Shown here piece by piece: positions 636-36,774 of a DNA stretch of 64,000 bases; position 1 is the stretch's first letter, and each line of letters starts with the position of its first letter. The translations under genes were made by a program, and so were the position numbers. This DNA comes from Candidatus Saccharimonadota bacterium (GTDB taxonomy: Bacteria > Patescibacteriota > Saccharimonadia > Saccharimonadales > Saccharimonadaceae). The stretch lies in NCBI GenBank assembly GCA_017431745.1, contig JAFRKK010000003.1, forward strand, positions 3,927 through 67,926, read 5' to 3'. The notes beneath the pieces are model-generated. The model did not search any database, had not been told where the DNA came from, and saw nothing but the letters and a program-made list of their open reading frames with translations.

Positions 636-645
636 TGTAAGGTAT

Positions 646-721: not shown

Positions 722-744
722 AAACCTTGGCAGTTATGTATTGT

Positions 745-820: not shown

Positions 821-824
821 TTTT

Positions 825-2924: not shown

Positions 2925-5399
2925 GTGGAGAGATTTTTGGAGTATTTTATACCGGAAAGGTACGTATTAGATATTGAGGTAGATAAGGGGCGAAAGACGA
3001 TTGGGGGAGTAGTGAAGGTTTATGGGGTATCTAAAGCTGAAAATATTAAGTTCCACGCGGTAGGCTTATCTGTTAAGGAAGTGTTAATTGATGGTAAAAA
3101 GTGGGATTTTAAATGTGAAAATGGCGTTTTGACGCTATTTAAGGTGCCTAGGAGCGATTTGAATATCGAAATAGGGTATGAGGGCACTTTGAATGAGAAT
3201 ATGCAGGGGGCATACTTATCGACTTATGAATATAATGGAAAAACGGAAATAATAGTAGCGACGCAGTTTGAGTCGCATTATGCTAGGGAGGCGTTTCCGT
3301 GTATTGATGAGCCCGCGGCAAAAGCGGTGTTTGAACTGACAATCACAGCTTCGGCAGAAGATATAGTGTTGTCTAATATGCCAGAAATGAAATTTAGTTC
3401 GGCGCCGCGTCGCTCGCGCCCGTCGCCACGGGGCGAGCGCGCTAATTCTCGCGCTGCCGCGCTCCGAAATGCGCCGAACCAAATTTCAGTTTCTGGCCGT
3501 AAAACCACTATATTTGAGCCGACGCCGAGAATGTCGACATATTTGCTGGCGTGGGTGATTGGTAAGTTTCATGGGAAAACTGTGAAGAATGAGCATGGGG
3601 TGGAGATTACGACTTACACGGCGTTGAACCAAGAAATTGATTCGGTGGATTTTGCAAATGAGGTAGCAGCACGGAGTTTGGAGTTCTATGATGATAATTT
3701 TGGGATAGATTATCCATTGAAAAAACTAGACCAAGTGGCTTTGCCAGATTTTGACGCGGGGGCAATGGAAAACTGGGGACTAGTGACTTATCGAGAATCA
3801 ATGTTACTTGCGTCGAAAGATGCGACTTTGGGGGCGCGAAAATCAGTGGCGTTAACTGTGGCGCATGAGCTTTCGCACCAGTGGTTTGGGGACCTTGTAA
3901 CGATGAAGTGGTGGGATGATTTGTGGTTAAATGAATCGTTTGCGTCGGTGATGGAATACTATGCAGTGGATGCGATTTATCCAGATTTTAAAATTTGGGA
4001 AAGCTTCTTTACGGGAGATTGTACGGCGGCTTTGAATCGGGATGCGTATCAAGGTGTGCAATCGGTGCATCAAGAGGTTCATGACCCGGAGGAAATCGTG
4101 ACCTTGTTTGATGGGGCGATTGTGTACGCCAAAGGCGCGAGATTAATGCTGATGTTGATTCGGTTGATGGGTTGGGAAGAGTTTTGCAAGGGGATACATG
4201 AGTATTTTGAAAAATATAAATATGAAAATACGGTGGGGGATAATTTGTGGGCTTGTCTTAAACCTTATGCAAAATTTGACCCGGGTGAGTTGATGCATGC
4301 ATTTATCGACCAACCCGGTTATCCAATAGTGACAAATGTGGGAGTGGATTTTGATAAGTTTACACAGAAGCGGTTTTTGTTGGACGGCGAAATGCCAGAA
4401 TCGGATTGGCCTTTGCCGGAAATCCGGGAAGATATGAGTGGGCATTATGTGCTGAATTTGAGTGACGAGGAGTTTGATGAAAGATTGAAAAGATTTGATG
4501 AGTTGGGGCTAGAAGAAAAGCTGAGGCTTTTGATTGATAGAGATTTGATTACGCGAGCGGGGGTGGTGAGCCCGGCGTCGTTGGTACCGCTGGTGATGAA
4601 GTTTAAAAACGAATCTGTGGCAGCGGTGTGGAATAAGTTAGCATCGCTAGTCGGTAATTTGAAGGTGTATTTTGATGATGAGTCGGAGGAAGAAAAGAGA
4701 TTAAAGAATTACGTTTATGAGTTGGTAGATGAGAGGTTGAAGGAAGTTGGGATGGAGACGAGAGAGGGTGACGATGAGAATACGATTCGTTTAAGAGCGA
4801 ACTTAATGGCGCTAGATTATTTTGCGGAGGATAAGGAGAGATTTGAGGAGCTGGCGGTAAAATATGAGGACGATTACAGTAAGATGGACGCTGAGGTAAG
4901 GGATTCGATTATTAGTGCTAAGGTGTATTTAGAGCCGGAGTTTGTAGATGAGTGTTTGAAAAAATACCAGGAAGTGAGCGATCCGGATGTGAAGTTTGAT
5001 TATTTGGCGGCGGCGTGTTTGGTGCGAGATGAAAAAGAGCTAGATAAATTGATTGCGCTTCTTGGTGAAAATGAGATAGTAAAGCCGCAGGACCAATTGT
5101 ATTTGTTTGTATATTTATATCGGAACCCGAAATGTAGAAAAAAGGCGTTTGAATGGCTAGTAAATAATTGGGAGACGGTGAAGAGGATAAATGGTGATAA
5201 GGCACTCGATAGCTACCCAACGATAATCGCGAAGCTTGCGAGAACGAAAGAAGAGTATGAGGATTATGTAGAATTCTTTAAGCCGATGGAAAACGATTCG
5301 TTAATGGCGCGAGCGGTGAAAATTGGGATGAACGAAATTAAAGCAAGACTAGAATTGATTGAAAAGAATAAAGAAGAAGTGCTTAAAGCGATTTCTTGA
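2925..5399 (+). CDS. pepN: M1 family aminopeptidase (PepN), with an in-frame palindromic insertion
   Basis: ATQFE...AREAFPCIDEP, GAMENWGL, HELSH-x18-E (NESFA), ERAP1-like C-terminal helical domain. RBS AAGGAGG. Confidence 0.95.
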   Translation: MERFLEYFIPERYVLDIEVDKGRKTIGGVVKVYGVSKAENIKFHAVGLSVKEVLIDGKKWDFKCENGVLTLFKVPRSDLNIEIGYEGTLNENMQGAYLSTYEYNGKTEIIVATQFESHYAREAFPCIDEPAAKAVFELTITASAEDIVLSNMPEMKFSSAPRRSRPSPRGERANSRAAALRNAPNQISVSGRKTTIFEPTPRMSTYLLAWVIGKFHGKTVKNEHGVEITTYTALNQEIDSVDFANEVAARSLEFYDDNFGIDYPLKKLDQVALPDFDAGAMENWGLVTYRESMLLASKDATLGARKSVALTVAHELSHQWFGDLVTMKWWDDLWLNESFASVMEYYAVDAIYPDFKIWESFFTGDCTAALNRDAYQGVQSVHQEVHDPEEIVTLFDGAIVYAKGARLMLMLIRLMGWEEFCKGIHEYFEKYKYENTVGDNLWACLKPYAKFDPGELMHAFIDQPGYPIVTNVGVDFDKFTQKRFLLDGEMPESDWPLPEIREDMSGHYVLNLSDEEFDERLKRFDELGLEEKLRLLIDRDLITRAGVVSPASLVPLVMKFKNESVAAVWNKLASLVGNLKVYFDDESEEEKRLKNYVYELVDERLKEVGMETREGDDENTIRLRANLMALDYFAEDKERFEELAVKYEDDYSKMDAEVRDSIISAKVYLEPEFVDECLKKYQEVSDPDVKFDYLAAACLVRDEKELDKLIALLGENEIVKPQDQLYLFVYLYRNPKCRKKAFEWLVNNWETVKRINGDKALDSYPTIIAKLARTKEEYEDYVEFFKPMENDSLMARAVKIGMNEIKARLELIEKNKEEVLKAIS
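3388..3488. repeat. Palindromic mini-element inserted in frame in pepN
   Basis: 18-bp arms TGAAATTTAGTTCGGCGC / GCGCCGAACCAAATTTCA (1 mismatch). The GC-rich core resembles the elements at 21333 (opposite strand) and 35908. Confidence 0.9.
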
Positions 5400-8903: not shown

Positions 8904-8988
8904 ATTTTTATTATAGCACAAGTGTTAAAATTGCTTGTGCTTAAGGTTGATTTGATGTATAATAAAAGCATAAACAAGGGCATCATAA

Positions 8989-13070: not shown

Positions 13071-13259
13071 AATAATATAATAGTTATTTCTAAAGCTTGG
13101 ACTTGTTTGCTTGTAATTATTACAACATAAGTCAAGAAAAAATCTCCTTATTCGCCCTTCGGGCTGGGGGAGATTTTTTCATTGTTAAGTTGTAATAATT
13201 ACGCAAACAAATCTGGTCTAAATCTCATTATGCTTTAGAAATAACTATTATATTATTCT
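13069..13259. repeat. 191-bp imperfect palindrome between arcD and gpmI (includes a terminator-like core)
   Basis: Perfect 28-bp outer arms at 13069-13096 and 13232-13259, inner arms TAATTATTACAAC/GTTGTAATAATTA and GAAAAAATCTCC/GGAGATTTTTTC. Confidence 0.92.
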
Positions 13260-13276
13260 TATGTTATAATAGCAGT

Positions 13277-19340: not shown

Positions 19341-20591
19341 ATGAAACTATCAGAGGAATTAATATATCGTGGCTTTGTAGCCGAAAATACATTTGATGAT
19401 CCAGCGGAGTTGGATACGAGAGAGAATAAAAGTTTTTATTGGGGTGCAGATCCATCGGCTGATTCTTTGACGATTGGAAATTTGGCTGCGGCAATGATGT
19501 GTGCCTGTTTTGTGAAACATGGCTATAAACCATTTTTGTTGGTTGGTGGAGCGACTGGCCAGATTGGTGATCCGAAAGACAACGGTGAACGTGATCTTAA
19601 ATCTTTGGACGAAATTGAGCATAACAAGAAATGTATTAAAGAACAAATGGAGCGAGTAATTAGTCCAGTTGCAGCTAGCGATACTCCACTTACGATGGTG
19701 GATAATTATGACTGGTTTAAAGATATTAAGTATCTTGATTTCTTGCGGGAAGTAGGGAAGGCGTTTTCGATGACGCAGCTACTTGATCGTCAGTTTGTGC
19801 AAAACCGAATTGGCGAAGGTGGCTCTGGGATAAGCTACGCAGAGTTTTCATACACTTTGATTCAGGGTTATGATTTCTTGCATCTATATCGTGAGCATGG
19901 TGTAGGGATGCAGCTTTGTGGGGCTGACCAATTTGGTAACTGTGCTTCGGGCGTGCACTTGATTAAGCGGCTTGAAAATGGTTCGGCTGATGTGTGGTCT
20001 ACGCCATTAATTATTGACCCGGTATCTGGACGTAAATTTGGAAAGTCTGAAGGAAACGCCGTATGGCTTGCTGCGACCGATAATGGCTCCGGAAACTATA
20101 CGCCAATCTTTGATTTTTATCAATTCTGGCTAAATCAACCGGATGAAAGTGTGGAGTATTTGATTAAGATTTACACGTTCCTTTCAAAAGAAGAGATTGA
20201 AAAGATTTTGGCAGAGCACAAGAAAGCACCGGAAAAGCGGATTGCACAGAAAGCTTTGGCGCGTAATGTGACTGAAGTAGTGCATGGCAAAAAGGCAGCT
20301 GAAGCAGTGGAGGCTTTGACTGAAAGATTGTTTGATATTAAAACGAGTTTTAAGGAATTTGCTGAAGATGAGATTCGAGAATTTGGCGAATACTTGCCGA
20401 CTGTGAAGAAGGGTGTTCAGTTGGTGGATGCTTTGATTTCAAATGGTTTGGCAGAATCGAAGAAAAAAGCTCGTGAATTTATAGCTCAAGGTGCAATCAC
20501 AATTAATGGCGAAAAAGTGAAAGAAGACGTGAAGATTAACGAAGTGGTGATAATTAAAAAAGGTAAGAATAAGTTTGTGATTGTGCGATAA
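19341..20591 (+). CDS. tyrS: Tyrosine--tRNA ligase
   Basis: YWGADPSADSLTIGN, EFSYTLIQGYDF, GADQFGN, KFGKS, S4-like C-terminal domain. Confidence 0.96.
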   Translation: MKLSEELIYRGFVAENTFDDPAELDTRENKSFYWGADPSADSLTIGNLAAAMMCACFVKHGYKPFLLVGGATGQIGDPKDNGERDLKSLDEIEHNKKCIKEQMERVISPVAASDTPLTMVDNYDWFKDIKYLDFLREVGKAFSMTQLLDRQFVQNRIGEGGSGISYAEFSYTLIQGYDFLHLYREHGVGMQLCGADQFGNCASGVHLIKRLENGSADVWSTPLIIDPVSGRKFGKSEGNAVWLAATDNGSGNYTPIFDFYQFWLNQPDESVEYLIKIYTFLSKEEIEKILAEHKKAPEKRIAQKALARNVTEVVHGKKAAEAVEALTERLFDIKTSFKEFAEDEIREFGEYLPTVKKGVQLVDALISNGLAESKKKAREFIAQGAITINGEKVKEDVKINEVVIIKKGKNKFVIVR

Positions 20592-20618
20592 AATAAGCCC
20601 CGAAAAGGGGCTTATTTT
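20590..20618. terminator. Intrinsic terminator after tyrS
   Basis: AAAATAAGCCCC-GAAAA-GGGGCTTATTTT. Confidence 0.88.
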
Positions 20619-20638
20619 ATTTATGGTATAATTAGGTT

Positions 20639-21820
20639 ATGTATTTAGCAGTTTTGGGGCGACAAAGTGAGATATCAGTAGCGGAACTTGAGACGCTGTT
20701 TGATGATGTGAAAAAAAAGAATGATTTTTTGGCGAGTTTTGATAGTGATAGTGCGCCAAATATTGATAAACTGGGTGGAAGCTTGAAATTGGCGGAAAAG
20801 CTAGATATGAAACCGTTAGAGTATTTAACAGAACTACCAGAAGGGAAAATAACGGTTGGAGTATCAGACTATTCCAAAAAGGCTTCGCGAAAAACTGCTT
20901 CAATGGAGGCACTAAAACTTAAAAAGATTTTAGTGCGATATGGACGTAGTGTGCGGGTGGTGGAGAATAAAGAAGCAGTTTTATCTACGGCGACATCACT
21001 TCATAATGGCCTGTCGGGGAAAAATGAGCGAAAAGTAGAGCTTATTAAGGTTGATAATGATTGGTATAAAGTAATCGGCGTGCAAGATATCGATGCTTAC
21101 GCTAAACGTGACCAAGCGAGGCCGGCAAGAGATGCTAAAGTTGGAATGCTACCACCGAAGTTGGCTCAAATCTTAATTAATTTATGTGGTCCGCTTAAAC
21201 CTGTTTCAACTATACTAGATCCGTTTTGTGGAACTGGTGTGGTGCTACAAGAGGCTCTTCTGATGGGCTACCATGCCTATGGGACTGATTTAAATGAAAA
21301 AATGATAGAATATTCTGACAAGAATTTACGGTGGCTAAGCGAGAAAGACTTTTTTCTGGGACATTTCGGAGGTTACGACCGAGAATTAGGGCGCTCCGCC
21401 CGTGACGACGGGCCGGAGCGACCCGTGTCCCAGAAAAAATGTACTTTCTCGCTTAGCCAGGGAGATGCTACTAGTTTTCAATGGAAACAGCCCATAGACG
21501 CGGTAGCGTGTGAAGGGTATCTGGGGAAGCCGATGTCGAAGATTCCGACCGAAATGACGTTAAAAGAACAAAAACAAGAGTGTAGTGCAATTGTACTAGG
21601 TTTTCTGAAGAATTTGGCGGGGCAGATTAAGAATGACACTCCAGTAGTGATAGCCGTACCGGCCTGGCTACGGGAGGATGGAACATATTCCCGCTTGAAT
21701 ATCCTTGACGAAATCGATAAACTGGGGTATAATGTTAATAATAAATCGCGCGAGGGGCTTATTTATTGTCGTGAAAAGCAAATCGTAGCGAGAGATATAT
21801 TAATTTTAAGGAAAAAGTAA
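20639..21820 (+). CDS. SAM-dependent RNA methyltransferase, Trm11/TrmM-like (THUMP-associated), with an in-frame palindromic insertion
   Basis: RDQARPARDAKVGMLPPKLAQILIN, ILDPFCGTGVVLQEA, GTDL, GDAT, EGYLG. Confidence 0.8.
   Translation: MYLAVLGRQSEISVAELETLFDDVKKKNDFLASFDSDSAPNIDKLGGSLKLAEKLDMKPLEYLTELPEGKITVGVSDYSKKASRKTASMEALKLKKILVRYGRSVRVVENKEAVLSTATSLHNGLSGKNERKVELIKVDNDWYKVIGVQDIDAYAKRDQARPARDAKVGMLPPKLAQILINLCGPLKPVSTILDPFCGTGVVLQEALLMGYHAYGTDLNEKMIEYSDKNLRWLSEKDFFLGHFGGYDRELGRSARDDGPERPVSQKKCTFSLSQGDATSFQWKQPIDAVACEGYLGKPMSKIPTEMTLKEQKQECSAIVLGFLKNLAGQIKNDTPVVIAVPAWLREDGTYSRLNILDEIDKLGYNVNNKSREGLIYCREKQIVARDILILRKK
21333..21458. repeat. Palindromic mini-element inserted in frame in the methyltransferase gene
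   Basis: Perfect 15-bp arms GGCTAAGCGAGAAAG/CTTTCTCGCTTAGCC, plus TTTTTCTGGGACA/TGTCCCAGAAAAA. The reverse complement of the core closely matches the intergenic element at 35931-35996. Confidence 0.93.
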
Positions 21821-22093
21821 ATGTCACATGTAAAAGCTGGCGGTACCGCCAAGAATATCCATAACAATGCTGGCCAGCGCCTAGGCGTGAAGCGTTTTGG
21901 TGGCCAGAAAGTCAAGAACGGTGAAGTTTTAGTGCGTCAGACTGGTGCTACGAAGATCGCTGGGCCTGGTACTTATATGTCACGTAATTTCACAATTCAC
22001 GCTGCGAAGGATGGTGTAGTCACTTTCGTAAAAACGAAAAAAACACACTTTTCGGGCAAATCTCTTCCAAGAGTGCGCGTAGAAGTTAGATAA
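21821..22093 (+). CDS. rpmA: 50S ribosomal protein L27
   Basis: MSHVKAGG...GQRLGVKRFGGQ...GEVLVRQTG...TIHAAKDGVV. Confidence 0.96.
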   Translation: MSHVKAGGTAKNIHNNAGQRLGVKRFGGQKVKNGEVLVRQTGATKIAGPGTYMSRNFTIHAAKDGVVTFVKTKKTHFSGKSLPRVRVEVR

Positions 22094-22095
22094 TC

Positions 22096-22120
22096 AATAA
22101 CCCCCGAGGGGGTTATTTTT
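22096..22120. terminator. Intrinsic terminator after rpmA
   Basis: AATAACCCCC-GA-GGGGGTTATT followed by a T run. Confidence 0.85.
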
Positions 22121-22174
22121 TATTTTTTGTGCGTATTTGTCCTTTTTCCCCTAGTATGCTAAAATAGATGTAGT

Positions 22175-22357
22175 ATGGAAGATTTTTCTAGGTTCCAGCG
22201 GGTTTATGCGAATTTGCCAGAGAAGATAAGGAATGGTATAGTTGTAGTGGTTAACGACAAGCCTTACAGCTGGAACGCTGTATATGTAGAATTGATTAAT
22301 AATACTGCCCTCGGTAGAGAAATGTATAAAAAACTAATTAAAATGGAGATAATATAA
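22175..22357 (+). CDS. Hypothetical small protein (60 aa), first gene of a coupled three-gene module
   Basis: Promoter-like TGCTAAAAT upstream. Its stop overlaps the next start (TAATG). Confidence 0.75.
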   Translation: MEDFSRFQRVYANLPEKIRNGIVVVVNDKPYSWNAVYVELINNTALGREMYKKLIKMEII

Positions 22358-22572
22358 TGGATGATGATTTCCAAAAATTAGTCTATGCCAGGCTCCAAGC
22401 TTTACCTAAAGGCTATTCTATTTCTATTGGCGGCGTTGGTGATGTTTCTAAAGAAGAGGCTTTACAGCATGTAAGCGCAAAAGATAAAATCGGTCAATTA
22501 TTAATAGCCGTAGATCGACATTATTTTGATTTGATTAAATCTGGGGAAATGTATGCGGGTATTACTGACTAA
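22357..22572 (+). CDS. Hypothetical small protein (71 aa), second gene of the module
   Basis: Translationally coupled on both sides; globular-looking composition. Confidence 0.75.
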   Translation: MDDDFQKLVYARLQALPKGYSISIGGVGDVSKEEALQHVSAKDKIGQLLIAVDRHYFDLIKSGEMYAGITD

Positions 22573-23185
22573 CCCAGAAGTTGATACTCTTACTTATTAT
22601 CTGTCCGCATGGACCAACCATGTTCTCAAGAAAACCAAAGCCAAAAATAAATACTATCATTTAAAGCGTGAAAAGGTTACTCGGGAAAAATTTGAAAGTT
22701 TTTTAACAAAACGTCCTATTGACCTGGTTTTATTATGCGGGCACGGCGGGTCAAACAAAGTTTTGGGCAATGATGAGGTAATTTTAGATAAAAATAACGG
22801 CGCAATTCTAAAAGATAAAGTAGTTCATGCTTTATCGTGCCAAAGCGCAAAAGTTTTAGGCAGAGATGTAGTTAAGAATGGTGCTAAAGCTTATATTGGT
22901 TATAAGGAAGATTTTATCGCGTTTTTGGATAATTCTAAGCGAACCTCGCAGCCCCTTAGCGATGATACTGCAGCGTTATTCTTAGATGCAGCATTTACTG
23001 TACCGAAAGTGTTGTTGCGCGGAGGTCTCCCAAACGAAGCCGTTACGGCTGCGAAAAAAGAGTACGACCGCAGTATCAGAAAAGCAATTAATAGCGACAT
23101 ACAATCTGATAGCGACCAGTTCATTAACTGGCTTTACTGGGACAGGGACAACTTAGTAAAAATCGAGCAAACGAAGTCTGTCTAA
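22553..23185 (+). CDS. Putative clan CD (caspase/gingipain/CHAT-fold) cysteine peptidase-like protein
   Basis: Hydrophobic strand plus GHG (LVLLCGHGG), second strand plus SC (VVHALSCQSA) about 30 aa later, then GAKAYIGY. No signal peptide. Fold is inferred from motif spacing. Confidence 0.6.
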   Translation: MRVLLTNPEVDTLTYYLSAWTNHVLKKTKAKNKYYHLKREKVTREKFESFLTKRPIDLVLLCGHGGSNKVLGNDEVILDKNNGAILKDKVVHALSCQSAKVLGRDVVKNGAKAYIGYKEDFIAFLDNSKRTSQPLSDDTAALFLDAAFTVPKVLLRGGLPNEAVTAAKKEYDRSIRKAINSDIQSDSDQFINWLYWDRDNLVKIEQTKSV

Positions 23186-23208
23186 ATAGTTTGTGGTATA
23201 ATCAAGAT

Positions 23209-24267
23209 ATGGCTAAGAAAAAGTCAGCAAAGAAGAAAGCGATTATTTCTTTTCGTACAGTTTTGATGGTTTTGACGGTAATTTTGGTGGCTTATGTAGT
23301 GTATCAAAACTGGCCAGATATTTTGGAGACACTGGATAATATTCAAGATGCAAATGTATTTGTTTTGCTGCTTTTAATTCCAGAGCAATTATTCATGTAT
23401 TATGCTTGTGGACAAATATTCTTTTCTTATTTAAAACATCGGAAAAACGTGAAGGAATTTACCGATAAAGAAATACTGAGGATTTCGACGGAATTGAATT
23501 TTGTGAATCATGCGATTCCGGCGGGAGGAGTTGGGGGATTAGCCTTTTTGACTTATCGTTTGTCGCCGTACGGTGTGACGGCAGGGCAAGCGAGTTTTTT
23601 GTATTTGTTTCGTTATGCGGTAACAACGGTAATTAATTATTTCCAGGCGCTAGTAGCGATTTTGGTGCTATTGATACTTAATTTGATTCCGCGAGAGGCG
23701 ATGTGGATTATTCCGGTGGCGCTTCTCATGAATATGGGGGTTTGCTTCTTCTTGTGGTTCGTGATATTCGTGGCAAGTAGCAGGAAGCGGATTGAAGTTT
23801 TTTCGCGAGCGATTACAAAAATTATGAATTCGGCAGTGACATTAGTGACATTCGGGCACAAGAAAGAAGCGGTTTCACGAGAGAAGATTCATCAATATTT
23901 TTCTGATATTCATGAAAGCGTAAAAATTGCAAAGGAGCACAAAAGATATTTAAAAAAGCCTGCACTATGGGGCTTTATTTATAGTTTCTTGGAAGTTGGG
24001 ACATATTGGATTGTGGCGATATCGCTGGGGCGGCCGGAGCTTTTGCCGTTTATTATGGTGGGGGAGGCGATCGGGTCGGTATTTGACGGAATTGTGCCGT
24101 ATGGATTATACGAGCTTGGTATGGCGGGGGTCATGATTGCTCTAGGCGTGGATTTTCCTACCGCAACGATTGTAACCGTTATGACACGGGTGATTACGTT
24201 GCTGTTTACGATCGTGTCAGGGTCGTATCCGTATTACAAGGCAATTCAAAGGAAAACAGATGACTGA
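23209..24267 (+). CDS. Lysylphosphatidylglycerol synthase-like TM domain protein (YbhN/UPF0104 flippase-like)
   Basis: Multiple TM helices, NHAIPAGGVGG, VPYGLYELGM...TIVTVMTRVITL. Confidence 0.75.
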   Translation: MAKKKSAKKKAIISFRTVLMVLTVILVAYVVYQNWPDILETLDNIQDANVFVLLLLIPEQLFMYYACGQIFFSYLKHRKNVKEFTDKEILRISTELNFVNHAIPAGGVGGLAFLTYRLSPYGVTAGQASFLYLFRYAVTTVINYFQALVAILVLLILNLIPREAMWIIPVALLMNMGVCFFLWFVIFVASSRKRIEVFSRAITKIMNSAVTLVTFGHKKEAVSREKIHQYFSDIHESVKIAKEHKRYLKKPALWGFIYSFLEVGTYWIVAISLGRPELLPFIMVGEAIGSVFDGIVPYGLYELGMAGVMIALGVDFPTATIVTVMTRVITLLFTIVSGSYPYYKAIQRKTDD

Positions 24268-25438
24268 TTTTTCCAAAACTGAGACATTTACTCCAACTGA
24301 ATTTGTAGGCGTGGTAAATCAGACACTGGAATATGCGTATTCGTCGGTATTGGTGACGGGAGAGGTGGCGAGCTTTAAAGTGAATCAAGGGAAGTGGGTG
24401 TTTTTTGATTTGAAGGATGAAGAGACAAGTGTTTCATGTTTTATGACGCTGTGGTCTTTGAGGCAGCCGCTAGAAGATGGGATGAAAGTGACGGTGCGTG
24501 CGGTGCCAAAGTTGACAAAATGGGGGAAGTTTTCGTTGACAGTTTCGACGGTGCAGCCGGTGGGTGAAGGGTCTTTGAAAAAAGCGTATGAGTTGCTGAA
24601 GAAAAAGCTGACGGCTGAAGGGTTGTTTGATCCGGCCAAAAAACGGTCATTGCCAGATGATTTGTTGCGAGTTGGGGTGATTTCTTCGACTCAGGCTGCG
24701 GGCTATGCAGATTTTATTAAGATTATCAATGCTCGGTGGGGTGGAATGAAAGTGCAAGTAGCCCACACTCAAGTGCAGGGAATGGATGCGCCAGATCAAA
24801 TTATTCGAGCTTTACAGTATTTTAACGAGCGAGCGGATGTACAGGTAATTGCAATACTGCGCGGTGGTGGTTCGGCAGATGATTTGTCGTGTTTTAATGA
24901 TGAGAAGTTGGTGCGAGAAATTGCTAGCTCTAGAATACCGGTGATTACGGGAATTGGGCACGAGGTGGATGAATCTTTATCGGATCTTGCGGCGGACGTG
25001 CGGGCTTCAACCCCATCGAACGCAGCCGAGATTTTGACGCGTGACCAGGCAGAGGAATTGGAAAAACTGTCGCGGTCGATGAATCGGGTTAACCAAGTGT
25101 TGTTGCAACAAGTCGATCAAGCGAGATTTGAAAACCGCGAGAAAGTTCAGAAGGTGTCGCGAGGGCTACTAACAAAATATATTGAACCGAGTCTAGAGGC
25201 TAATAAAAATAAAATGACACAAATGTTGCAAAAAATACAGGGGAAAGTGACGGAAATGCAACAAAATGTGCAAAGTAAACTTAAGTTACTAGAGGCGCTA
25301 AATCCGGAGCAAGTTTTAGCACAAGGGTATGCGATATTGAGTGGTAAAATATCTCCAGGAATGCTCATAAAAATTACAACATTTAGTAGCGATATAGAGG
25401 CAGAAGTTAAAAAAGTAATGGAAAGGAATAAAAACTAA
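24260..25438 (+). CDS. xseA: Exodeoxyribonuclease VII large subunit
   Basis: VTGEVASF, FFDLKDE, GVISSTQAAGYADF, RGGGSADDL, ITGIGHEVD...TPSNAAE. Confidence 0.96.
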   Translation: MTDFSKTETFTPTEFVGVVNQTLEYAYSSVLVTGEVASFKVNQGKWVFFDLKDEETSVSCFMTLWSLRQPLEDGMKVTVRAVPKLTKWGKFSLTVSTVQPVGEGSLKKAYELLKKKLTAEGLFDPAKKRSLPDDLLRVGVISSTQAAGYADFIKIINARWGGMKVQVAHTQVQGMDAPDQIIRALQYFNERADVQVIAILRGGGSADDLSCFNDEKLVREIASSRIPVITGIGHEVDESLSDLAADVRASTPSNAAEILTRDQAEELEKLSRSMNRVNQVLLQQVDQARFENREKVQKVSRGLLTKYIEPSLEANKNKMTQMLQKIQGKVTEMQQNVQSKLKLLEALNPEQVLAQGYAILSGKISPGMLIKITTFSSDIEAEVKKVMERNKN

Positions 25439-25852: not shown

Positions 25853-25912
25853 GTGGAGAAGCAAAGAAGAAGCGTACCGCTTGGGAGAGGTAAACATAAC
25901 AAGAGGTATTAC

Positions 25913-27853
25913 ATGAAGAGCATGAAGAAGTGCTATAGCACTAAACAAGACAAAATAAGCTTAAACAAAATAGACGAGTTAATGAGACTGGTTCGGCATA
26001 GGCGACGTTCCAGCGCCGGTATGTTTTACACTTCTTCTGCCGGCGCTGTGACCTCGCTTATTTTGTGCCTAATGGTGAGCCTGGCCATTACTGGGCTAGG
26101 CGCAAATAGTGCCAATGCAACTTCAGTAATGAGCCTCACAGTAAGTAGCGATACAGTAGCCCTAAACCTCGCCCCTACTCGCGCTACAGGCACCTTTGGC
26201 AAATCTAGTAATATATCTATTACCGCAAAGACCACCAATGCGACAGGATATACTTTAGGTGTAGCGGCAGCTAGTGCGACAGATTATGATAAGTTGAAGA
26301 ATGGTAGTGATTCAATTGATTCCATTACAGAAGCCGTAACCGAAGAAGCTTTCAAAGCATTGAATAATACAGCTTATAACGGTAAGTGGGGCTATCTCCC
26401 TAGCAAACATAACTCTGCTGTTAATACAGATTTTCTCCCAGCGCCAAAAGCTTCTGGCGATATTCTTGATGTTACTACTACAGCTAACACAACAGCCAAT
26501 GAATATTCCCTTGCCATTGGCGCAAGAGTAGACAGTACCACCAAAATGGGCGCCTATTCCAATACTTATAATGTAATCCTAGTTAACAACGCTATACCTT
26601 ATACCATTACTTACATGGACAGTATCATTGGCAGTATGCCGACTGACGTAGATAGCACTTCGGAAAGTGAAACTGTCTATATTTCGGGCAATACGCCAAC
26701 TAGAAGTGGCTACACCTTCAATGGTTGGTGTACAGTAGCGCCAACTCGTTCTACGCTAACTGATACTTGTAGTGGCACAACTTACACCCAGGGTCAGGCT
26801 CACCACATTGATGGTTCAAGTCTCACTAATGATTTAACTCTCTACGCCATGTGGAAACGTAATACCATGCAGAATGTATCTGAATGGGAAAGCACTGTAG
26901 GAGCCGGCGAAGAAACTACAGCAGTAGATACGAGGGATGGTAATGTATATTCAGTGGCTAGACTTTGTATGAGTGCTGCTACGCATACACAACCAGCTCT
27001 AAATACTTGTGATAGAACGATGTTATGGATGACGCAGAACCTAGACCTTAAACTCGGTCCAGCCGGTTCACAAACCCTTACTAATGCAGATACAGACCTC
27101 AATAGTGTATCGTCCTGGACACCAGGTGATACAGCGAAGGTACCAGCAGTGATTACGAATCACGCAACAGGCAGCCCAAGCAACTCCGTGACTGGTTGGA
27201 CCAATAGCAACAACAAACCTTACTGGGCGGAAGGTGGCGACTATTATGTGTATACTAGCGGTAATACTAATACAGACACCATCTATAACAGCATGACAGC
27301 CTGTATTAACGGTGGACATACGGAAGACCAATGTAGACACTACCATGTAGGCAATTACTACAACTGGAGTGCAGCAGTAGCCAGTAACGATACCTCTAGC
27401 ACGACATCTGATCTCACAGTGATGCCAAATTCCATCTGCCCAAAGGGTTGGCGTTTACCGAATGGCTTAACGGGCACTAATGGTAACGAAATCATTACTG
27501 AGTTTAACCAGCTAAGCCTCGCTAATAACATTACAGCAGGGATTACAACCAAGCATGATCAGTCGCCAGGTTCTGGGCAATGGGTAAACACCGGCTGGAC
27601 TTCAACTGGCTTCAATAACTTCCGCTCTACCAGCACTAACCCAGCGGGAAAGCAGGCGCCGATGTACTTTGTCCGCTCGGGCAGCCTCGATGGTACTACG
27701 CTCTACGATTACGGCACGCTTGGCCTCTTGTGGTCTAGTACTTCACAGTATACTACCATTGCTTACTACCTTGACTTCCATTCAGGCGTATTCTACCCGG
27801 CGGGTCAGTATGGTCGCTTCGACGGGTTTCCAGTGCGGTGCGTGGCTCGGTAA
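25913..27853 (+). CDS. Surface protein with an InlB B-repeat and a C-terminal FISUMP (Fib_succ_major, C-lectin fold) domain; probable DGR target
   Basis: N-terminal TM/signal segment; B-repeat YTITY...PTRSGYTFNGWCT...LTLYAMWK; FISUMP motifs GNYYNWSAA, ICPKGWRLP, GLLWSST, GFPVRCVAR. Start at 25913 follows AGAGG. Confidence 0.85.
   Translation: MKSMKKCYSTKQDKISLNKIDELMRLVRHRRRSSAGMFYTSSAGAVTSLILCLMVSLAITGLGANSANATSVMSLTVSSDTVALNLAPTRATGTFGKSSNISITAKTTNATGYTLGVAAASATDYDKLKNGSDSIDSITEAVTEEAFKALNNTAYNGKWGYLPSKHNSAVNTDFLPAPKASGDILDVTTTANTTANEYSLAIGARVDSTTKMGAYSNTYNVILVNNAIPYTITYMDSIIGSMPTDVDSTSESETVYISGNTPTRSGYTFNGWCTVAPTRSTLTDTCSGTTYTQGQAHHIDGSSLTNDLTLYAMWKRNTMQNVSEWESTVGAGEETTAVDTRDGNVYSVARLCMSAATHTQPALNTCDRTMLWMTQNLDLKLGPAGSQTLTNADTDLNSVSSWTPGDTAKVPAVITNHATGSPSNSVTGWTNSNNKPYWAEGGDYYVYTSGNTNTDTIYNSMTACINGGHTEDQCRHYHVGNYYNWSAAVASNDTSSTTSDLTVMPNSICPKGWRLPNGLTGTNGNEIITEFNQLSLANNITAGITTKHDQSPGSGQWVNTGWTSTGFNNFRSTSTNPAGKQAPMYFVRSGSLDGTTLYDYGTLGLLWSSTSQYTTIAYYLDFHSGVFYPAGQYGRFDGFPVRCVAR
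27665..27853 (+). other. Putative DGR variable region (VR)
   Basis: The last 62 codons contain no Asn in an otherwise Asn-rich protein. Many NNC/NNT codons (TAC, GAC, CTC, TTC, AGC) alternate with fixed residues, and the GC-rich end CGGTGCGTGGCTCGG is IMH-like. Confidence 0.6.
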
Positions 27854-34413: not shown

Positions 34414-34490
34414 TGGTGGGCGATAGAGGATTTGAACCTCTGACCTTTTCTACGTCAAAGAAACGCTCTAGCCAACTGAGCTAACCGCCC
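34414..34490 (-). tRNA. tRNA-Val(GAC)
   Basis: Reverse complement GGGCGGT...ATCGCCCACCA, anticodon arm TTTCT-TT GAC GT-AGAAA. Confidence 0.96.
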
Positions 34491-34509
34491 ATTTGTAGGT
34501 CTACTGTTA

Positions 34510-34586
34510 TGGTGAGCCGGGAGAGGCTCGAACTCTCGACACCGGGCTTAAAAGGCCCGTGCTCTAACCAACTGAGCTACCGGCCC
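34510..34586 (-). tRNA. tRNA-Lys(TTT)
   Basis: Reverse complement GGGCCGG...CCGGCTCACCA, anticodon arm CGGGC-CT TTT AA-GCCCG. Confidence 0.96.
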
Positions 34587-34595
34587 ACATTGCTG

Positions 34596-34671: not shown

Positions 34672-34737
34672 ATAGATGTATTATACCATAGATTTTGTTT
34701 TTTGCATAAAAAATGAATTAATACTATAATAGTGGGT

Positions 34738-35922
34738 ATGAATAGAGTGCCATTAGCGGAGAGAATGAGACCGACGAAGCTATCTGAGGTGGTGGGACAG
34801 GATGAAATTATTGGTGAAGGAAAAATTTTGACGGAGATTGTGCGGAAAGGTGAACCGGTAAACTTGATTTTTTGGGGGCCACCGGGGACAGGTAAGACGA
34901 CGCTGGCTCGGATTTTGGCGCGAGAATTTGAAGCAGATTTTGTGGAGATATCGGCGGTGACGGCGGGGAAAAAGAATGTTGAAGAAGTAGTAGAACGAGC
35001 AAAATTAAACTGGAATCTGAAAACACGGACGATTTTGTTTGTGGATGAAATCCATCGGTTTAATAAGGCGCAGCAGGATGCATTTTTGCCACACGTTGAA
35101 TCGGGATTGATTACTTTGATTGGGGCTACAACAGAGAACCCTTCGTTTGAAGTGATTTCGCCGCTGCTTAGCCGTTCACGGGTCGTAGTGGTGTCAGCGC
35201 TATCGAAGGATGCGATTATTGAGGTATTGAAGCGGGCGATTAAAGCAGAAAAAGCTTCGAAGCGAGTATCTAAGAAAGCAATTGATTTGTTAGCGGAGCT
35301 GTCGGGTGGTGATGCGAGGGCGGCATTAGGGGATTTGGAATTAGCTTTGTCACTAGCTAGTAAGGTGGATGAAAAAGTAGTAGAAGAGGCGGCGGGAAAG
35401 AAAATGCCAGGGTACGATAAGAAAGGCGACAACCATTATGACACGATCTCAGCATTTATCAAATCGATGCGTGGTTCGGATGTGGATGCGGCACTTTATT
35501 ATCTTGCTCGGATGGTAGAAGCAGGTGAAGACCCGAAGTTTATCGCACGGAGAATGGTAATTTTTGCTTCAGAAGATATTGGGCTAGCTGGGAATGGAGC
35601 GCTTAGCCTTGCGACGGCGTGTTTTCAAGCGGTGGAAAGAGTGGGGATGCCGGAATCGGGGTTAATGTTGGCGCATTGTGCGGTGGCTCTCGCGCTATCG
35701 AAAAAGTCGCGGCAAACAACGGATGCGTGGTATAAAGCACTTGAAGTGGCGCGTAAATCGCGAGGTGAGCCGGTGCCGACGTGGCTTCGGAACGCGCCGA
35801 CCAAATTAATGAAAGATTTGGGATATGGAAAAGGTCAAAAATGGGAGGCGGGGTTCCATCTCGACAAAAGTTACTTGCCAGAGAGTATTAAGGACGTTGA
35901 AATATGGAAGACAACTAAATAA
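34738..35922 (+). CDS. rarA: Replication-associated recombination protein A (RarA/MgsA)
   Basis: PLAERMRP, WGPPGTGKTTLA, FVDEIHRFNKAQQD, ATTENPSFEV, YDKKGDNHYDTISAFIKS.RGSD. Confidence 0.97.
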   Translation: MNRVPLAERMRPTKLSEVVGQDEIIGEGKILTEIVRKGEPVNLIFWGPPGTGKTTLARILAREFEADFVEISAVTAGKKNVEEVVERAKLNWNLKTRTILFVDEIHRFNKAQQDAFLPHVESGLITLIGATTENPSFEVISPLLSRSRVVVVSALSKDAIIEVLKRAIKAEKASKRVSKKAIDLLAELSGGDARAALGDLELALSLASKVDEKVVEEAAGKKMPGYDKKGDNHYDTISAFIKSMRGSDVDAALYYLARMVEAGEDPKFIARRMVIFASEDIGLAGNGALSLATACFQAVERVGMPESGLMLAHCAVALALSKKSRQTTDAWYKALEVARKSRGEPVPTWLRNAPTKLMKDLGYGKGQKWEAGFHLDKSYLPESIKDVEIWKTTK

Positions 35923-36026
35923 AGCCGTTCGGGACACGGGTCGGCTCGGCCCGTCGTTACGGGCGAGCCGCCCTCTTTCTCGGTCGTAACCTCCGAACGG
36001 TCCCTCAGGCTTTATTTAGTTGTCTT
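35908..36026. repeat. Palindromic mini-element between convergent rarA and the DsbA-like gene
   Basis: Perfect 19-bp arms AAGACAACTAAATAAAGCC/GGCTTTATTTAGTTGTCTT. Core TTCGGGACAC...CGGTCCCTCAGG is shared with other copies. Confidence 0.93.
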
Positions 36027-36774
36027 AGCTATCTAAGCCGGCTTGGAAGTACATTTTGACGTATTCCCAGCCCCAGGAGAGGTCGAAGCCGGAGGAGGTG
36101 TAGTTGTTGAATTTGAAATAAGGCATACCATTGGTGAGTTTGGCGGTTTTTTCGGCGTTCTTTTTAATTTCATTGAGAGGGTCTTGGTTTTTAACACAAT
36201 TGTCAAACTCTTCGCCAAGGCCGATTTGATGTCCGATTTTGATCCAGTAGTCGGGTCCGAGGCTACCCATCTTAGAGAAGGCAGACTTGCCGAGGTCTTT
36301 GAAATAATCATTCCAAATGTTAGTGACGGCGAGATTGTAGTAATCCCAGAATTTGCCTTGTGATTTGGCACAATAAGTGGCGACGGCGGAATAGCGGGAG
36401 TGGATGGGGCTACTTTCGCCAAATTCATAGAGAAAGTCAGAGAGGCGAATTTCGACGAGAATGTCGTTTTCGGCGATATATTTTTGGAATTCGTCTTCGT
36501 GTTCGACGATGGCGTTTTCGAAGGCGACACAGTAAGGGCAAACAAGATCAGAATAAATAACGAAGTAGTTTTTAGCGTTTATGTTGCCGGTGGTCGTTTG
36601 TTCATCCCAAATTTTTTCGGAATTTGAGGGCTCTTTTGGGGTCATACTAATAACAATGGCGGCAATAATAATTGCAATAATTGCAATGATGCCACCGATT
36701 CTAAGAACTTTTTTCACTTTTCTCCTTTTTCTCCTTACTCGTTTGCTTCGCCTTTTTAGCGAGGTATTTTTCAT
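36025..36774 (-). CDS. Membrane-anchored DsbA/thioredoxin-like protein
   Basis: Basic N-terminus plus TM, then YSDLVCPYC (CPYC) and GMPYF cis-Pro-like motif. Confidence 0.8.
   Translation of the reverse strand: MKNTSLKRRSKRVRRKRRKVKKVLRIGGIIAIIAIIIAAIVISMTPKEPSNSEKIWDEQTTTGNINAKNYFVIYSDLVCPYCVAFENAIVEHEDEFQKYIAENDILVEIRLSDFLYEFGESSPIHSRYSAVATYCAKSQGKFWDYYNLAVTNIWNDYFKDLGKSAFSKMGSLGPDYWIKIGHQIGLGEEFDNCVKNQDPLNEIKKNAEKTAKLTNGMPYFKFNNYTSSGFDLSWGWEYVKMYFQAGLDS

What the first reader, a model, noticed from the sequence alone, without database searches (positions are those of the whole stretch)
21333..21458. Second in-frame element, opposite orientation, inside an RNA methyltransferase
The 126-bp palindrome (42 codons, frame preserved) reads as ...SEKDFFLGHFGGYDRELGRSARDDGPERPVSQKKCTFSLS..., between the SAM-binding motifs GTDL and GDAT. 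Its core is the reverse complement of the intergenic copy after rarA. The same element is therefore open in both orientations in two different genes, which may be what allows it to colonise coding sequence (inference).
Basis: partly seen in the sequence, partly recalled or inferred. Interest (0 to 1): 0.75.

Follow-up and report, generated by a model that had tools for sequence, protein, structure and literature searches.

The report
In-frame flipping palindromic repeat, Saccharibacteria
A 128-base GC-rich hairpin-forming repeat sits in frame inside a working tRNA-methyltransferase gene of a gut Saccharibacterium; it belongs to an apparently undescribed repeat family that lives mostly inside genes, builds its outer stem from the host gene's own codons, and is found flipped in close relatives.

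Summary
Window 21332-21459 is a 128-nt near-perfect palindrome (fold z = -10.3) read in frame inside a Trm11-like methyltransferase gene under purifying selection (dN/dS 0.11). Its core is the reverse complement of the copy after rarA, and a third copy lies in frame in an M1 aminopeptidase.

It belongs to a repeat family confined to gut and rumen Saccharibacteria. I found 116 copies in 909 kb, and nothing matched in Rfam or the held literature. Each copy has a conserved 62-68-nt junction of two hairpins with covarying stems, closed by a stem of about 27 bp whose outer part differs at every locus.

- 68% of copies lie wholly inside long open frames, the same as random segments.
- All six reading frames are used by host genes.
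- At the methyltransferase the outer arms cover the native helix end and strand β3.
- The nearest ortholog carries the identical 62-nt core, inverted.
- 12 of 40 orthologous pairs are flipped.
- 87% of copies point the same way relative to GC skew.

The closest known kind is the Rickettsia palindromic element. How the element spreads, how its arms form and how it flips are inferred, not shown. I found no transposase.

The parts
21332..21459 (-). Whole palindrome of copy B. The family's 'canonical' strand is the - strand here. The + strand, which is also the mRNA sense strand, is the one that folds better.
   Evidence: Inverted repeats; fold z = -10.3; profile hit 21354-21436 on the - strand, E = 1.6e-18.
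21332..21347 (.). Left outer arm TGGCTAAGCGAGAAAG, locus-specific. It encodes W232-K236, the end of native helix alphaB.
   Evidence: 100% complementary to 21444-21459; helix 220-235; W-L is conserved in outgroups that lack the element.
21444..21459 (.). Right outer arm CTTTCTCGCTTAGCCA, locus-specific. It encodes F270-Q274, the native strand beta3 just before GDAT.
   Evidence: (strand 270-274).
21350..21363 (.). Left inner arm TTTTTTCTGGGACA, the family-conserved closing stem (terminal-inverted-repeat-like).
   Evidence: I3; consensus T-run + CGGGG / CCCCG + A-run across 112-114 copies.
21426..21439 (.). Right inner arm TGTCCCAGAAAAAA.
21364..21425 (-). 62-nt conserved core: the junction carrying hairpins P3 and P2.
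   Evidence: 100% identical, as reverse complement, to the core in ortholog L112; 85% identical to copy C.
21389..21423 (.). P2, the long GC hairpin with the conserved loop GTCGYYAC (read on the canonical strand).
   Evidence: I4; 11 of 14 predicted pairs show compensatory changes across 112 copies.
21366..21382 (.). P3, a short hairpin (TCGGAGGTTACGACCGA on the + strand), with the conserved CTCCGAA on the canonical strand.
   Evidence: fold; at least 10 different complementary stem variants in the family.
20639..21820 (+). Host gene: a Trm11/TrmG10-like SAM-dependent methyltransferase, 393 aa. The insert lies in the alphaB-beta3 loop, and residues 239-266 are predicted to be disordered.
   Evidence: PF01170/PF01555 match stops at residue ~226; pLDDT below 50 for 239-266; dN/dS 0.11; 5e71, 6zxw.
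3380..3497 (+). Copy A: 118-nt palindrome in frame in the M1 aminopeptidase gene 2925..5399, canonical orientation. It is +32 aa relative to the nearest empty orthologs.
35908..36026 (+). Copy C: 119-nt palindrome filling the spacer between the convergent genes rarA (34732..35922) and a thioredoxin-like gene (36025..36774, - strand). The left arm contains the last rarA codons and its stop.
   Evidence: The orthologous copy in L068 is flipped.

Best explanation
What is shown:
- Copy B is one member of a family of small, GC-rich, non-autonomous palindromic repeats. The conserved unit is about 85-96 nt: a junction of two hairpins plus a T-run/CGGGG closing stem.
- The family is confined to gut and rumen Saccharibacteria of the Nanosyncoccus type.
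- Copy B lies in a surface loop of a functional methyltransferase and is read through as a disordered extra peptide of about 30 residues.
- Copies inside genes keep the host frame open. They are as frequent in genes as chance placement would give, and all six frames are used.
- The closing stem continues for another 10-25 bp into sequence that is different at every locus.
- At orthologous sites these arms diverge faster than the surrounding gene, yet stay complementary within each copy.
- At orthologous sites the core is often found in the opposite orientation.
- Most copies point the same way relative to GC skew.

What I infer about the mechanism:
1. The unit arrived by transposition or a similar copying event. 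It survives in genes because its length and lack of stops often leave the frame intact. Once inside a gene it can be removed only by in-frame deletions.
2. The very stable core nucleates hairpins in single-stranded DNA at the replication fork. Template switching of the nascent strand onto itself (quasipalindrome correction, inverted copying of the flank) then makes the neighbouring host sequence complementary. In this way the palindrome grows out of host codons and its arms evolve in concert.
3. The arms act as inverted repeats across which the core flips, by recombination or strand switching. A flip persists only where the new frame is open.
4. The two strands fold unequally. Copies whose weaker-folding (canonical) strand is on the G-rich strand, taken here as the lagging-strand template, predominate. 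This could be because insertion is strand-specific or because the other orientation is lost faster.
For: - Family and structure: 111+ loci from a pattern scan, nearly all Saccharibacteria. There are 116 profile hits in 909 kb and 3 in the window. P2 has 11/14 pairs with compensatory changes, and P3 has at least 10 complementary variants.
- Arms: median 27 matched bp against 4-5 at control positions.
- Coding tolerance: 79/116 copies sit inside ORFs, against 68% for random segments. The insert has pLDDT below 50, flanked by a confident helix and strand. dN/dS is 0.11.
- Arms made of host sequence: W-L and strand beta3 are present in about 70 outgroup genes that have neither element nor palindrome. 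The empty L115 has no palindrome. At the L016 site the left arm is homologous to the empty orthologs and part of the right arm is its inverted copy.
- Concerted evolution of the arms, over 39 orthologous pairs: flank identity 0.74, arm identity between orthologs 0.60, within-copy complementarity 0.80, cross-species complementarity 0.58.
- Flips: window against L112 shows 92.0% identity outside the palindrome (dS 0.295), with the 62-nt core 100% identical as reverse complement and sharing a P2 stem variant seen in only 4 of 112 copies. 12 of 40 orthologous pairs are flipped, including copy C against L068. Among 120 methyltransferase orthologs, 55 are reverse, 28 forward and 15 without a core, and opposite states occur at 4.5% protein distance. 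The aminopeptidase site also shows both orientations, remnants and empty sites.
- Loss: L114 is a 90-nt deletion between GAAAAA repeats that lie in both arms.
- Strand polarity: the complement of the canonical strand folds better in 106/112 copies. Arm mismatches are A:C 94 against G:T 44 on the canonical strand, whatever the sense of the host gene and in both skew classes.
- Orientation: the canonical strand is on the G-rich strand in 97-99 of 112 copies, p = 7e-16. The window has a uniform positive skew.
- Known precedent: template switching perfects imperfect inverted repeats (PMC7202029, PMC5941160).
Against: - No transposase, recombinase or autonomous partner was found. The window holds only housekeeping genes, and there is nothing in viral contigs. 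No direct target-site duplication is visible, and no recent insertion was caught.
- Nearly all copies already have arms: outside locus L074 the fewest matched base pairs is 15. Growth of the arms after insertion is therefore not observed. The arms could be made at insertion.
- At the AlaRS site (L092) almost the whole 135-nt palindrome is extra sequence, with GC-rich outer arms. This fits duplication or nesting better than conversion of native codons.
- The core is better conserved than the synonymous sites of the host (0 differences in 62 nt at dS 0.295; core identity 0.83 against flank 0.74). A purely selfish passenger does not predict this.
- A simple flip of the present B allele gives a stop codon, so the change to the L112 state needed extra +1/-1 changes in the arms.
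- Only assembled contigs, no raw reads, were available, so flipping within a population is untested.
- Reading positive GC skew as the leading strand is general knowledge, not tested for this organism.
Confidence: 0.6

Rival explanations
1. The element is the non-autonomous partner of a single-strand DNA transposon, of the HUH/Y1 type as in IS200/IS605 and REP-RAYT, or another hairpin-recognising system. It inserts strand-specifically at the replication fork. Either it targets hairpin loops or it makes an inverted copy of the target as it inserts. On this view, opposite orientations and different core subfamilies at one site are repeated insertions into the same hairpin, not flips in place.
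For: - Strong orientation bias relative to GC skew (97-99 of 112).
- The folding asymmetry is tied to the element's own polarity.
- There is no direct target duplication.
- The conserved hairpin loops (GTCGYYAC) look like protein recognition sites.
- In one subfamily the P2 hairpin starts with CGTC, like CGTC-tagged REPs and RPEs (PMC3733652).
- Different core subfamilies occupy the same orthologous site, for example the aminopeptidase site in the window, L021 and L022, and the methyltransferase site in the window and L051.
- Nearly every copy already has arms.
- Hairpin footprints such as L114 would provide targets for re-insertion.
Against: - No Y1/HUH or other transposase lies in the window. 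None was searched for genome-wide.
- The window and L112 share a rare P2 stem variant (4 of 112) and a 100% identical core, which fits descent plus inversion better than re-insertion.
- 8 of 12 flipped pairs put one member in the disfavoured orientation, which strand-specific insertion would not do.
- 30-bp palindromes suitable as targets are not expected inside coding sequence, and the empty L115 has none.
Confidence: 0.22
2. The element does something for the host at the DNA level. It could be a polar chromosome-architecture or replication-related site. It could also be a programmed intragenic inverton, whose flip switches host proteins between isoforms or off.
For: - The core is more conserved than the host's synonymous sites, and GC content of about 75% is held in a 43% GC genome.
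- 87% of copies have polar orientation.
- Spacing is about 1 per 20 kb.
- Flipping B in silico creates a premature stop, so a flip would switch the methyltransferase off.
- Intragenic invertons are a documented class (bioRxiv 10.1101/2023.03.11.532203).
Against: - The site shows every stage of decay: 18 degraded, 15 core-less and partial remnants among 120 orthologs.
- Host genes are unrelated housekeeping genes, and presence or absence varies between species.
- No invertase is nearby.
- Spacing in the window is irregular (3.4, 21.4 and 36.0 kb, then none for 28 kb).
- No within-population heterogeneity could be examined.
Confidence: 0.12
3. The element works as RNA: a ribozyme, an intron-like insert removed from the mRNA, or a regulatory RNA hairpin.
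For: A highly stable structure with covarying stems. Cores are present in metatranscriptome contigs.
Against: - No Rfam family matches, even at E = 10.
- All 79 intragenic copies keep the host frame open. About 55% of frames are stop-free in intergenic copies, and chance in-frame length adds a further factor of one in three, so splicing would not require this.
- Both orientations occur relative to the host mRNA (48 against 31), and the better-folding strand does not follow the sense strand (p = 0.29).
- Transcript contigs retain the core (weak evidence).
Confidence: 0.03
4. The palindrome is a chance feature or an assembly artefact.
For: Assemblies do break inside the core because it is repeated.
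Against: - Fold z = -10.3.
- The same insert is found in independent assemblies from ENA, NCBI and Logan, in more than 100 orthologs.
- The core has high depth in four metagenomes.
Confidence: 0.01

Closest known systems
Rickettsia palindromic elements (RPE; Ogata et al. 2000, 2002, as summarised in PMC10969869 and PMC3733652)
   Same: - Both are 100-150-bp palindromic repeats in a reduced-genome, host-dependent bacterium.
- Many copies are inserted in frame in unrelated housekeeping genes and translated as extra surface peptides compatible with the fold.
- No dedicated transposase is known.
- A CGTC motif lies at a hairpin end in one subfamily.
   Different: - The phylum differs, and this element is GC-rich in an AT-rich genome.
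[quoted passage not shown] Here all six frames are used, so there is no single conserved peptide.
- The outer stem is locus-specific and built from host sequence.
- Cores are flipped between orthologs.
- Orientation is strongly biased relative to GC skew.
- Copies are not depleted from genes at all (68%, the same as random placement).
REP / BIME / REPIN elements and CGTC-tagged REPs (PMC3733652)
   Same: Both are GC-rich imperfect hairpins of 20-40 nt (compare P2) repeated around the genome, sometimes inside genes, and thought to act as single-stranded DNA. CGTC REPs also lack a dedicated transposase.
   Different: - Here the unit is a fixed junction of two different hairpins plus a closing stem, not a single hairpin or an inverted pair of the same hairpin.
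- Most copies are intragenic.
- No RAYT was seen.
- The arms are locus-specific.
MITEs (for example Correia, ERIC, Nezha; review PMC10969869)
   Same: Small, non-autonomous, with terminal inverted repeats (the inner arms), able to fold into a long hairpin, and occasionally giving in-frame fusions.
   Different: - No direct target-site duplication is visible, and no parent insertion sequence with the same ends was found.
- The inverted repeat runs beyond the conserved unit into unique host sequence.
Intragenic invertons (Chanin et al., bioRxiv 10.1101/2023.03.11.532203)
   Same: A segment lying wholly inside a gene, bounded by inverted repeats, found in both orientations, which recodes or truncates the protein.
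   Different: - Here the evidence is between species and strains, not within a population.
- The invertible segment is a dispersed repeat.
- No invertase was found.
- Many sites are decaying.
Quasipalindrome-templated mutagenesis and inverted-repeat correction by template switching (PMC7202029, PMC5941160)
   Same: A process that makes imperfect inverted repeats more perfect by copying one arm from the other. This is what the concerted evolution and outward spread of the arms look like.
   Different: It is known as a point-mutation hotspot mechanism at short inverted repeats. It has not, in the papers I searched, been described as building 20-30-bp arms out of coding sequence around a mobile hairpin. 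Its action here is inferred.

Membership tests
RPE-like 'protein-coding palindromes' | Dispersed palindromic repeat of about 100-150 bp | tested here: met
   Palindromes of 118-128 nt in the window; 116 copies in 909 kb.
RPE-like 'protein-coding palindromes' | Inserted in frame in functional genes, with orthologs lacking the insert | tested here: met
   79/116 copies inside ORFs; empty orthologs; host dN/dS 0.11.
RPE-like 'protein-coding palindromes' | Insert lies at the protein surface and is compatible with the fold | tested here: met
   In the AlphaFold model the insert at 239-266 has pLDDT below 50, between a confident helix 220-235 and strand 270-274.
RPE-like 'protein-coding palindromes' | Sequence homology to a Rickettsia RPE family, with a conserved encoded peptide | tested here: not met
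   There is no single conserved peptide, since all six frames are used. The family was found only in Saccharibacteria. Direct comparison with RPE sequences was not done.
MITE | Short, non-autonomous, with terminal inverted repeats | tested here: met
   Conserved inner arms, T-run + CGGGG / CCCCG + A-run. The unit is too small to encode a transposase, and host genes read it in all six frames.
MITE | Direct target-site duplication | tested here: not met
   The flanks of A, B and C are inverted complements, not direct repeats. Only incidental GAAAAA repeats lie within the arms.
MITE | A parent insertion sequence with the same ends | tested here: inconclusive
   No transposase among about 45 window genes scanned with Pfam. 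L074 has only partial tandem copies. Whole genomes were not scanned.
REP / REPIN | 20-40-nt imperfect palindrome with a GTAG or CGTC head | tested here: inconclusive
   P2 is a hairpin of about 35 nt that starts GCGTC in the main subfamily but GGGTC in the subfamily of copies B and C.
REP / REPIN | Mostly extragenic, and associated with a RAYT gene | tested here: not met
   68% of copies are intragenic. There is no Y1 transposase in the window.
IS200/IS605-type single-strand transposition (works like) | Orientation bias relative to replication, strand-specific hairpins, no target duplication | tested here: met
   97-99 of 112 copies on the G-rich strand; strand asymmetry of folding; no direct repeats.
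IS200/IS605-type single-strand transposition (membership) | TnpA (Y1/HUH) transposase and a conserved target tetra- or pentanucleotide | not tested
   No genome-wide search for Y1 or HUH proteins was made. A target motif cannot be read because the flanks have been made palindromic.
Intragenic inverton | Segment bounded by inverted repeats, wholly inside a gene | tested here: met
Intragenic inverton | Both orientations co-exist in one population | not testable with these tools
   All runs that hold the locus are kept as assembled contigs, which break in the core.
Intragenic inverton | Associated invertase | tested here: not met
   None in the window.
Intron / intein / known structured RNA | Removed from the RNA or protein, or matches a curated RNA family | tested here: not met
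   No Rfam match. The frame is always preserved. At about 30 residues in any of six frames it is too short for an intein. The core is retained in transcript contigs.

The most novel reading that the evidence does not exclude
The element is a new kind of hairpin-nucleated mobile module that rewrites its surroundings. It may make an inverted copy of the host flank as it inserts, by a replication-coupled single-strand mechanism with inverted rather than direct target duplication. Alternatively it may progressively convert host codons into its own stem. Either way it creates replication-polar, invertible switches inside essential genes of a minimal-genome symbiont. A flip would then recode or truncate the host protein; for copy B it would switch the methyltransferase off.
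Probability: 0.25. Interest if true: 0.85.

Novelty: new variant of a known kind. Interest (0 to 1): 0.7.

Why it matters
- Saccharibacteria have some of the smallest and most streamlined bacterial genomes, yet this repeat occupies the inside of their housekeeping genes as often as chance placement would allow. That gives a second, independent example, after Rickettsia, of selfish DNA living inside proteins, and one with hundreds of natural filled, empty, flipped and decayed alleles to compare.
- The locus-specific arms show a repeat reshaping host codons into its own secondary structure. This is a route to rapid, localised protein-loop evolution and to intragenic inversions.
- The strong orientation bias and strand asymmetry make questions about hairpins, replication and templated mutagenesis testable in cultivable Saccharibacteria.
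- On the practical side, the element breaks metagenome assemblies and truncates domain matches. Annotation pipelines for this phylum should mask it.

Tried and rejected
- Rfam, at gathering thresholds and at E up to 10, gave only tRNAs and noise. I compared the core by eye with the hammerhead consensus and it did not fit.
- Viral contigs had no match to the core pattern.
- Literature searches for Saccharibacteria or Patescibacteria with palindromic, MITE or in-frame terms found no description.
- Reads: DNA runs holding the locus are stored only as contigs, which end inside the repeated core. They could not show within-population inversion or empty alleles. The 'opposite strand' joints in X5, X6, X7 and X10 are fully explained by relatives carrying the flipped allele. 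The metatranscriptome contigs are too sparse to test expression of this gene.
- A first attempt to cut out empty-site DNA by blastn failed, and I redid it through protein alignments.
- RNAalifold on the MAFFT alignment recovered only P2, because P1 and P3 are aligned in different registers between subfamilies. I assessed P3 by direct enumeration instead. I did not build a covariance model.
- The idea that the short 364-aa orthologs (L114) are ancestral empty sites was rejected. They keep the right arm, including its inner part, so they are deletion footprints.
- Mutation bias as the cause of the A:C over G:T asymmetry was rejected. The asymmetry keeps its sign relative to the element in both skew classes.
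- A constant 96-nt insert size was rejected. Inserts range from 26 to 41 aa across sites.
- The parsimony count of 23 flips on a neighbour-joining tree is not used as a number, because the tree is poorly resolved.
Full report
**1. The observation**

Window 21332-21459 is a 128-nt palindrome. Its arms 21332-21347/21444-21459 (16 nt) and 21350-21363/21426-21439 (14 nt) are perfectly complementary, and an inner GC-rich hairpin lies at 21389-21423. As a single strand it folds at -85.7 kcal/mol against -43.1 +/- 4.2 for shuffles, z = -10.3.

It lies in ORF 20639..21820 (+, 393 aa) and keeps the frame. Bases 21358-21431 are 85% complementary to 35931-36004, which lies directly after rarA.

BLAST and nhmmer searches with copy B as query find a third copy at 3380-3497, in frame in an M1 aminopeptidase gene (2925..5399) in the other orientation. 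A family profile built later finds no further copy in the window. The three copies are the window's strongest GC peaks.

**2. The host gene**

- Pfam matches PF01170 and PF01555 only up to residue ~226, where the insert begins.
- The closest solved relatives are the archaeal Trm11/TrmG10 tRNA (guanine10-N2) methyltransferases (5e71, 6zxw).
- All close homologs are from Candidatus Saccharibacteria / Nanosyncoccus genomes assembled from ruminant and other gut metagenomes.
- Against the nearest ortholog with DNA in hand (L112), the gene is 92.0% identical outside the palindrome, with dS 0.295, dN 0.034 and dN/dS 0.11. It is a working gene.
- An AlphaFold model (pTM 0.81) puts NLRWLSEK at the end of helix 220-235 and FSLSQ in strand 270-274. 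Residues 239-266 between them have pLDDT below 50.

The insert is therefore a disordered excursion of the alphaB-beta3 loop, between the GTD and GDA motifs.

**3. The family**

A degenerate core pattern found 111+ stretches in one-genome-per-species contigs. About 93 are Saccharibacteria; the rest are evident chance matches in GC-rich genomes. A profile built from them finds 116 copies in 909 kb of fetched DNA. It finds none in 280 kb around the same methyltransferase gene in more distant, mostly environmental, Saccharibacteria, and none in viral contigs.

In metagenomes that hold this strain, the k-mer depth of the core is about 40 times that of the flanks. That agrees with about one copy per 20 kb.

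Aligned copies share four parts:
- an inner closing stem (T-run + CGGGG ... CCCCG + A-run, with a frequently bulged C);
- a long hairpin P2 with the loop GTCGYYAC;
- a short linker (TAATTC and variants);
- a short hairpin P3 followed by CTCCGAA.

P2 has compensatory changes at 11 of 14 predicted pairs, for example one pair that is G-C in 55 copies and C-G in 52. P3 occurs in at least ten different, all complementary, versions. No Rfam family matches. I found no description in the held literature.

**4. Life inside genes**

- 79 of 116 copies (68%) lie wholly inside an open frame of at least 450 nt with at least 90 nt on each side. The figure for random segments of the same loci is also 68%.
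- Relative to the host gene, 48 copies are in one orientation and 31 in the other.
- The core plus inner stem is free of stops in 3.3-3.9 of six frames on average, and all six frames are in use.
- In intergenic copies about 55% of frames are open, and only one length in three keeps the frame. That all 79 intragenic copies are open therefore reflects selection.
- Comparisons with orthologs lacking the insert exist for many host genes, with insert sizes of 26-41 aa. Copies A and B are each +32 aa relative to their nearest empty orthologs.

One caveat is that copy B is open over its whole length only in the frame in use.

**5. The arms are specific to each locus**

The closing stem has a median of 27 matched base pairs, against 4-5 at control positions. 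Beyond the conserved inner part its sequence differs at every locus.

At the methyltransferase, the outer 16-bp arms encode W232-K236 and F270-Q274, the end of a native helix and the native beta3 strand. About 70 outgroup genes without any element have the same NLxWL ... h-x-h-x-x-GDA layout in a 56-58-aa segment. The empty ortholog L115 has no palindrome there. Host codons have therefore become part of the palindrome.

At another site (L016) the left arm is homologous to the empty orthologs, and part of the right arm is its inverted copy. At a third site (AlaRS, L092) nearly the whole 135-nt palindrome is added sequence.

Across 39 orthologous pairs:
- flanking gene identity is 0.74;
- arm identity between orthologs is only 0.60;
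- complementarity within a copy is 0.80;
- complementarity across species is 0.58.

The two arms change together.

**6. Flips**

L112 and L113 encode a protein 89% identical to the window's. They carry, between the same GGGACA/TGTCCC inner arms, a 62-nt core that is 100% identical to the window's but reverse-complemented. The shared P2 stem version occurs in only 4 of 112 copies, which points to descent from one copy followed by inversion.

- Of 120 methyltransferase orthologs, 55 have one orientation and 28 the other. A further 18 are degraded, 4 are ambiguous and 15 have no core. Opposite states occur at 4.5% protein distance.
- Among all fetched loci, 12 of 40 orthologous pairs are flipped. 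These include the rarA copy C against L068.
- The aminopeptidase site likewise shows both orientations, a remnant (ALRNAPNQ) and empty sites.
- L114, a short ortholog, keeps the whole right arm. It is a 90-nt deletion between GAAAAA repeats that the A-run/T-run arms place on both sides.

A simple in-silico flip of the present B allele always brings the linker TAA/TAG into frame. L112 avoids this through -1/+1 differences in its arms. Flips are thus filtered by frame.

**7. Strand polarity and orientation**

The complement of the canonical strand folds better in 106 of 112 copies, by a mean of 7.5 kcal/mol. This does not depend on which strand the host gene transcribes.

In the locus-specific arms, mismatches on the canonical strand are A:C 94 against G:T 44. 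In intragenic copies the figures are 76 against 21, in both gene orientations.

GC skew is strongly positive across the whole window. Over all loci the canonical strand lies on the G-rich strand in 97-99 of 112 copies, p = 7e-16. The majority gene orientation does not predict this (62 against 50). The mismatch asymmetry keeps its sign in both skew classes, so it is not a replication-strand mutation bias.

Copy B is one of the minority. Its gene is on the G-rich strand and the element is reversed. Of the 12 flipped pairs, 8 put one member in the minority orientation. In the other 4 the gene block itself is inverted and the element follows the skew.

**8. Interpretation**

*Shown:* a clade-restricted, structured, non-autonomous repeat that is read through in host proteins. 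It has locus-specific, co-evolving arms, recurrent inversion between orthologs, in-frame decay and deletion, and a strong polarity relative to GC skew.

*Inferred:*
- Arrival by some form of transposition.
- Arms made and kept complementary by template switching of a nascent strand on its own hairpin. This is the documented quasipalindrome mechanism (PMC7202029, PMC5941160), and here it sometimes adds an inverted copy of the flank.
- Inversion across the arms by recombination or strand switching.
- Orientation bias from either strand-specific insertion or faster loss when the better-folding strand is on the lagging-strand template.

I put about 0.6 on this composite. The main rival (0.22) is an active single-strand (HUH-type) transposon system that targets or creates hairpins and re-inserts at the same sites. 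A host function or programmed inverton gets 0.12, an RNA role 0.03 and an artefact 0.01.

*What does not fit well:*
- The core is more conserved than the host's synonymous sites.
- No copy lacks arms.
- No mobilising enzyme was found.

**9. Comparison with known elements**

It works most like the Rickettsia palindromic elements, which are in-frame palindromic repeats inside housekeeping proteins of a reduced genome (PMC10969869, PMC3733652). It also has features of REPs, MITEs and intragenic invertons (bioRxiv 10.1101/2023.03.11.532203).

It fails defining tests for each:
- no single conserved peptide;
- no direct target duplication;
- no RAYT or invertase in the window;
- mostly intragenic.

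I therefore file it as a new variant of a known kind. Three properties set it apart from everything I found described: the host-derived arms, the flips and the replication polarity.

Noticed in passing
window 1-64000: GC skew is strongly and uniformly positive on the + strand (+0.12 to +0.34 in 4-kb windows), and about 49 of 59 long ORFs are on the + strand. The whole window seems to lie in one replichore.
   Followed up: partly
L114 3001-4368; L105; L051 (compare window 19341-25438): The methyltransferase-L27 gene pair is inverted relative to its neighbours, and relative to local GC skew, in some species, while the flanking genes (tyrS, RNase H, clpP, LPG synthase, xseA/B) keep their order.
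   Followed up: partly
P0076, P0081, P0091, P0095, P0101, P0105, P0108, P0119 (methyltransferase orthologs): A 56-aa version of the insert carries an internal duplication of the P2-encoded segment (…ARGDRPLGRGRPSVDGPAGRG…). P0144 (aminopeptidase) has a similar duplication.
   Followed up: no
L056 1892-4054; L082 4859-6695; L004: Some 8-kb loci carry three or four copies close together, several in one ORF. L082 and L024 hold a divergent subfamily in which P3 is replaced (…CTCCCGTTGTCGCGAA…).
   Followed up: no
L092 around 689-777 (AlaRS gene): The outer arms here are themselves GC-rich (AGCGCGGGGCC…/…GGCCACCCGCGCGCT-like) and resemble the element's own inner stem. This suggests a copy nested in the remains of an older copy.
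   Followed up: no
window 21387-21402, and contigs of runs X1-X4: Metagenome unitigs end inside the core, because it is repeated about 40 times more often than the flanks. The element probably fragments Saccharibacteria assemblies. Many database homologs of the aminopeptidase are recorded as partial.
   Followed up: partly
window 13056-13096 and 13232-13272: A 41-nt AT-rich inverted repeat (85% complementary, 135 nt apart) lies in the spacer between the DcuC-type carrier gene and the phosphoglycerate mutase gene. It is unrelated to the GC-rich element.
   Followed up: no
window 7962-11225: The arginine deiminase pathway genes sit together: carbamate kinase-like 7962-8921 (-), ornithine carbamoyltransferase 8989-9996, arginine deiminase 9993-11225. 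They are followed by a DcuC-type carrier gene (11277-13070).
   Followed up: no
window 58589-62395 and 25853-27853: A 1268-aa ORF has no Pfam match. A 666-aa ORF has weak, below-cut-off Pfam matches to the Listeria-Bacteroides repeat and Fib_succ_major families.
   Followed up: no
window 645-901 and 34417-34671: There are two clusters of three tRNA genes each. The mechanical ORF start of ftsH (857) overlaps the third tRNA of the first cluster, so the true start is probably further downstream.
   Followed up: no
window 41192-43945 (secA) and 11277-13070 (dcuC): The Pfam domain matches span many more residues than the profile length (SecA_DEAD: 421 residues for a 290-position profile; DcuC: 578 for 461). 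These proteins may carry other lineage-specific inserts, which are not this element.
   Followed up: no
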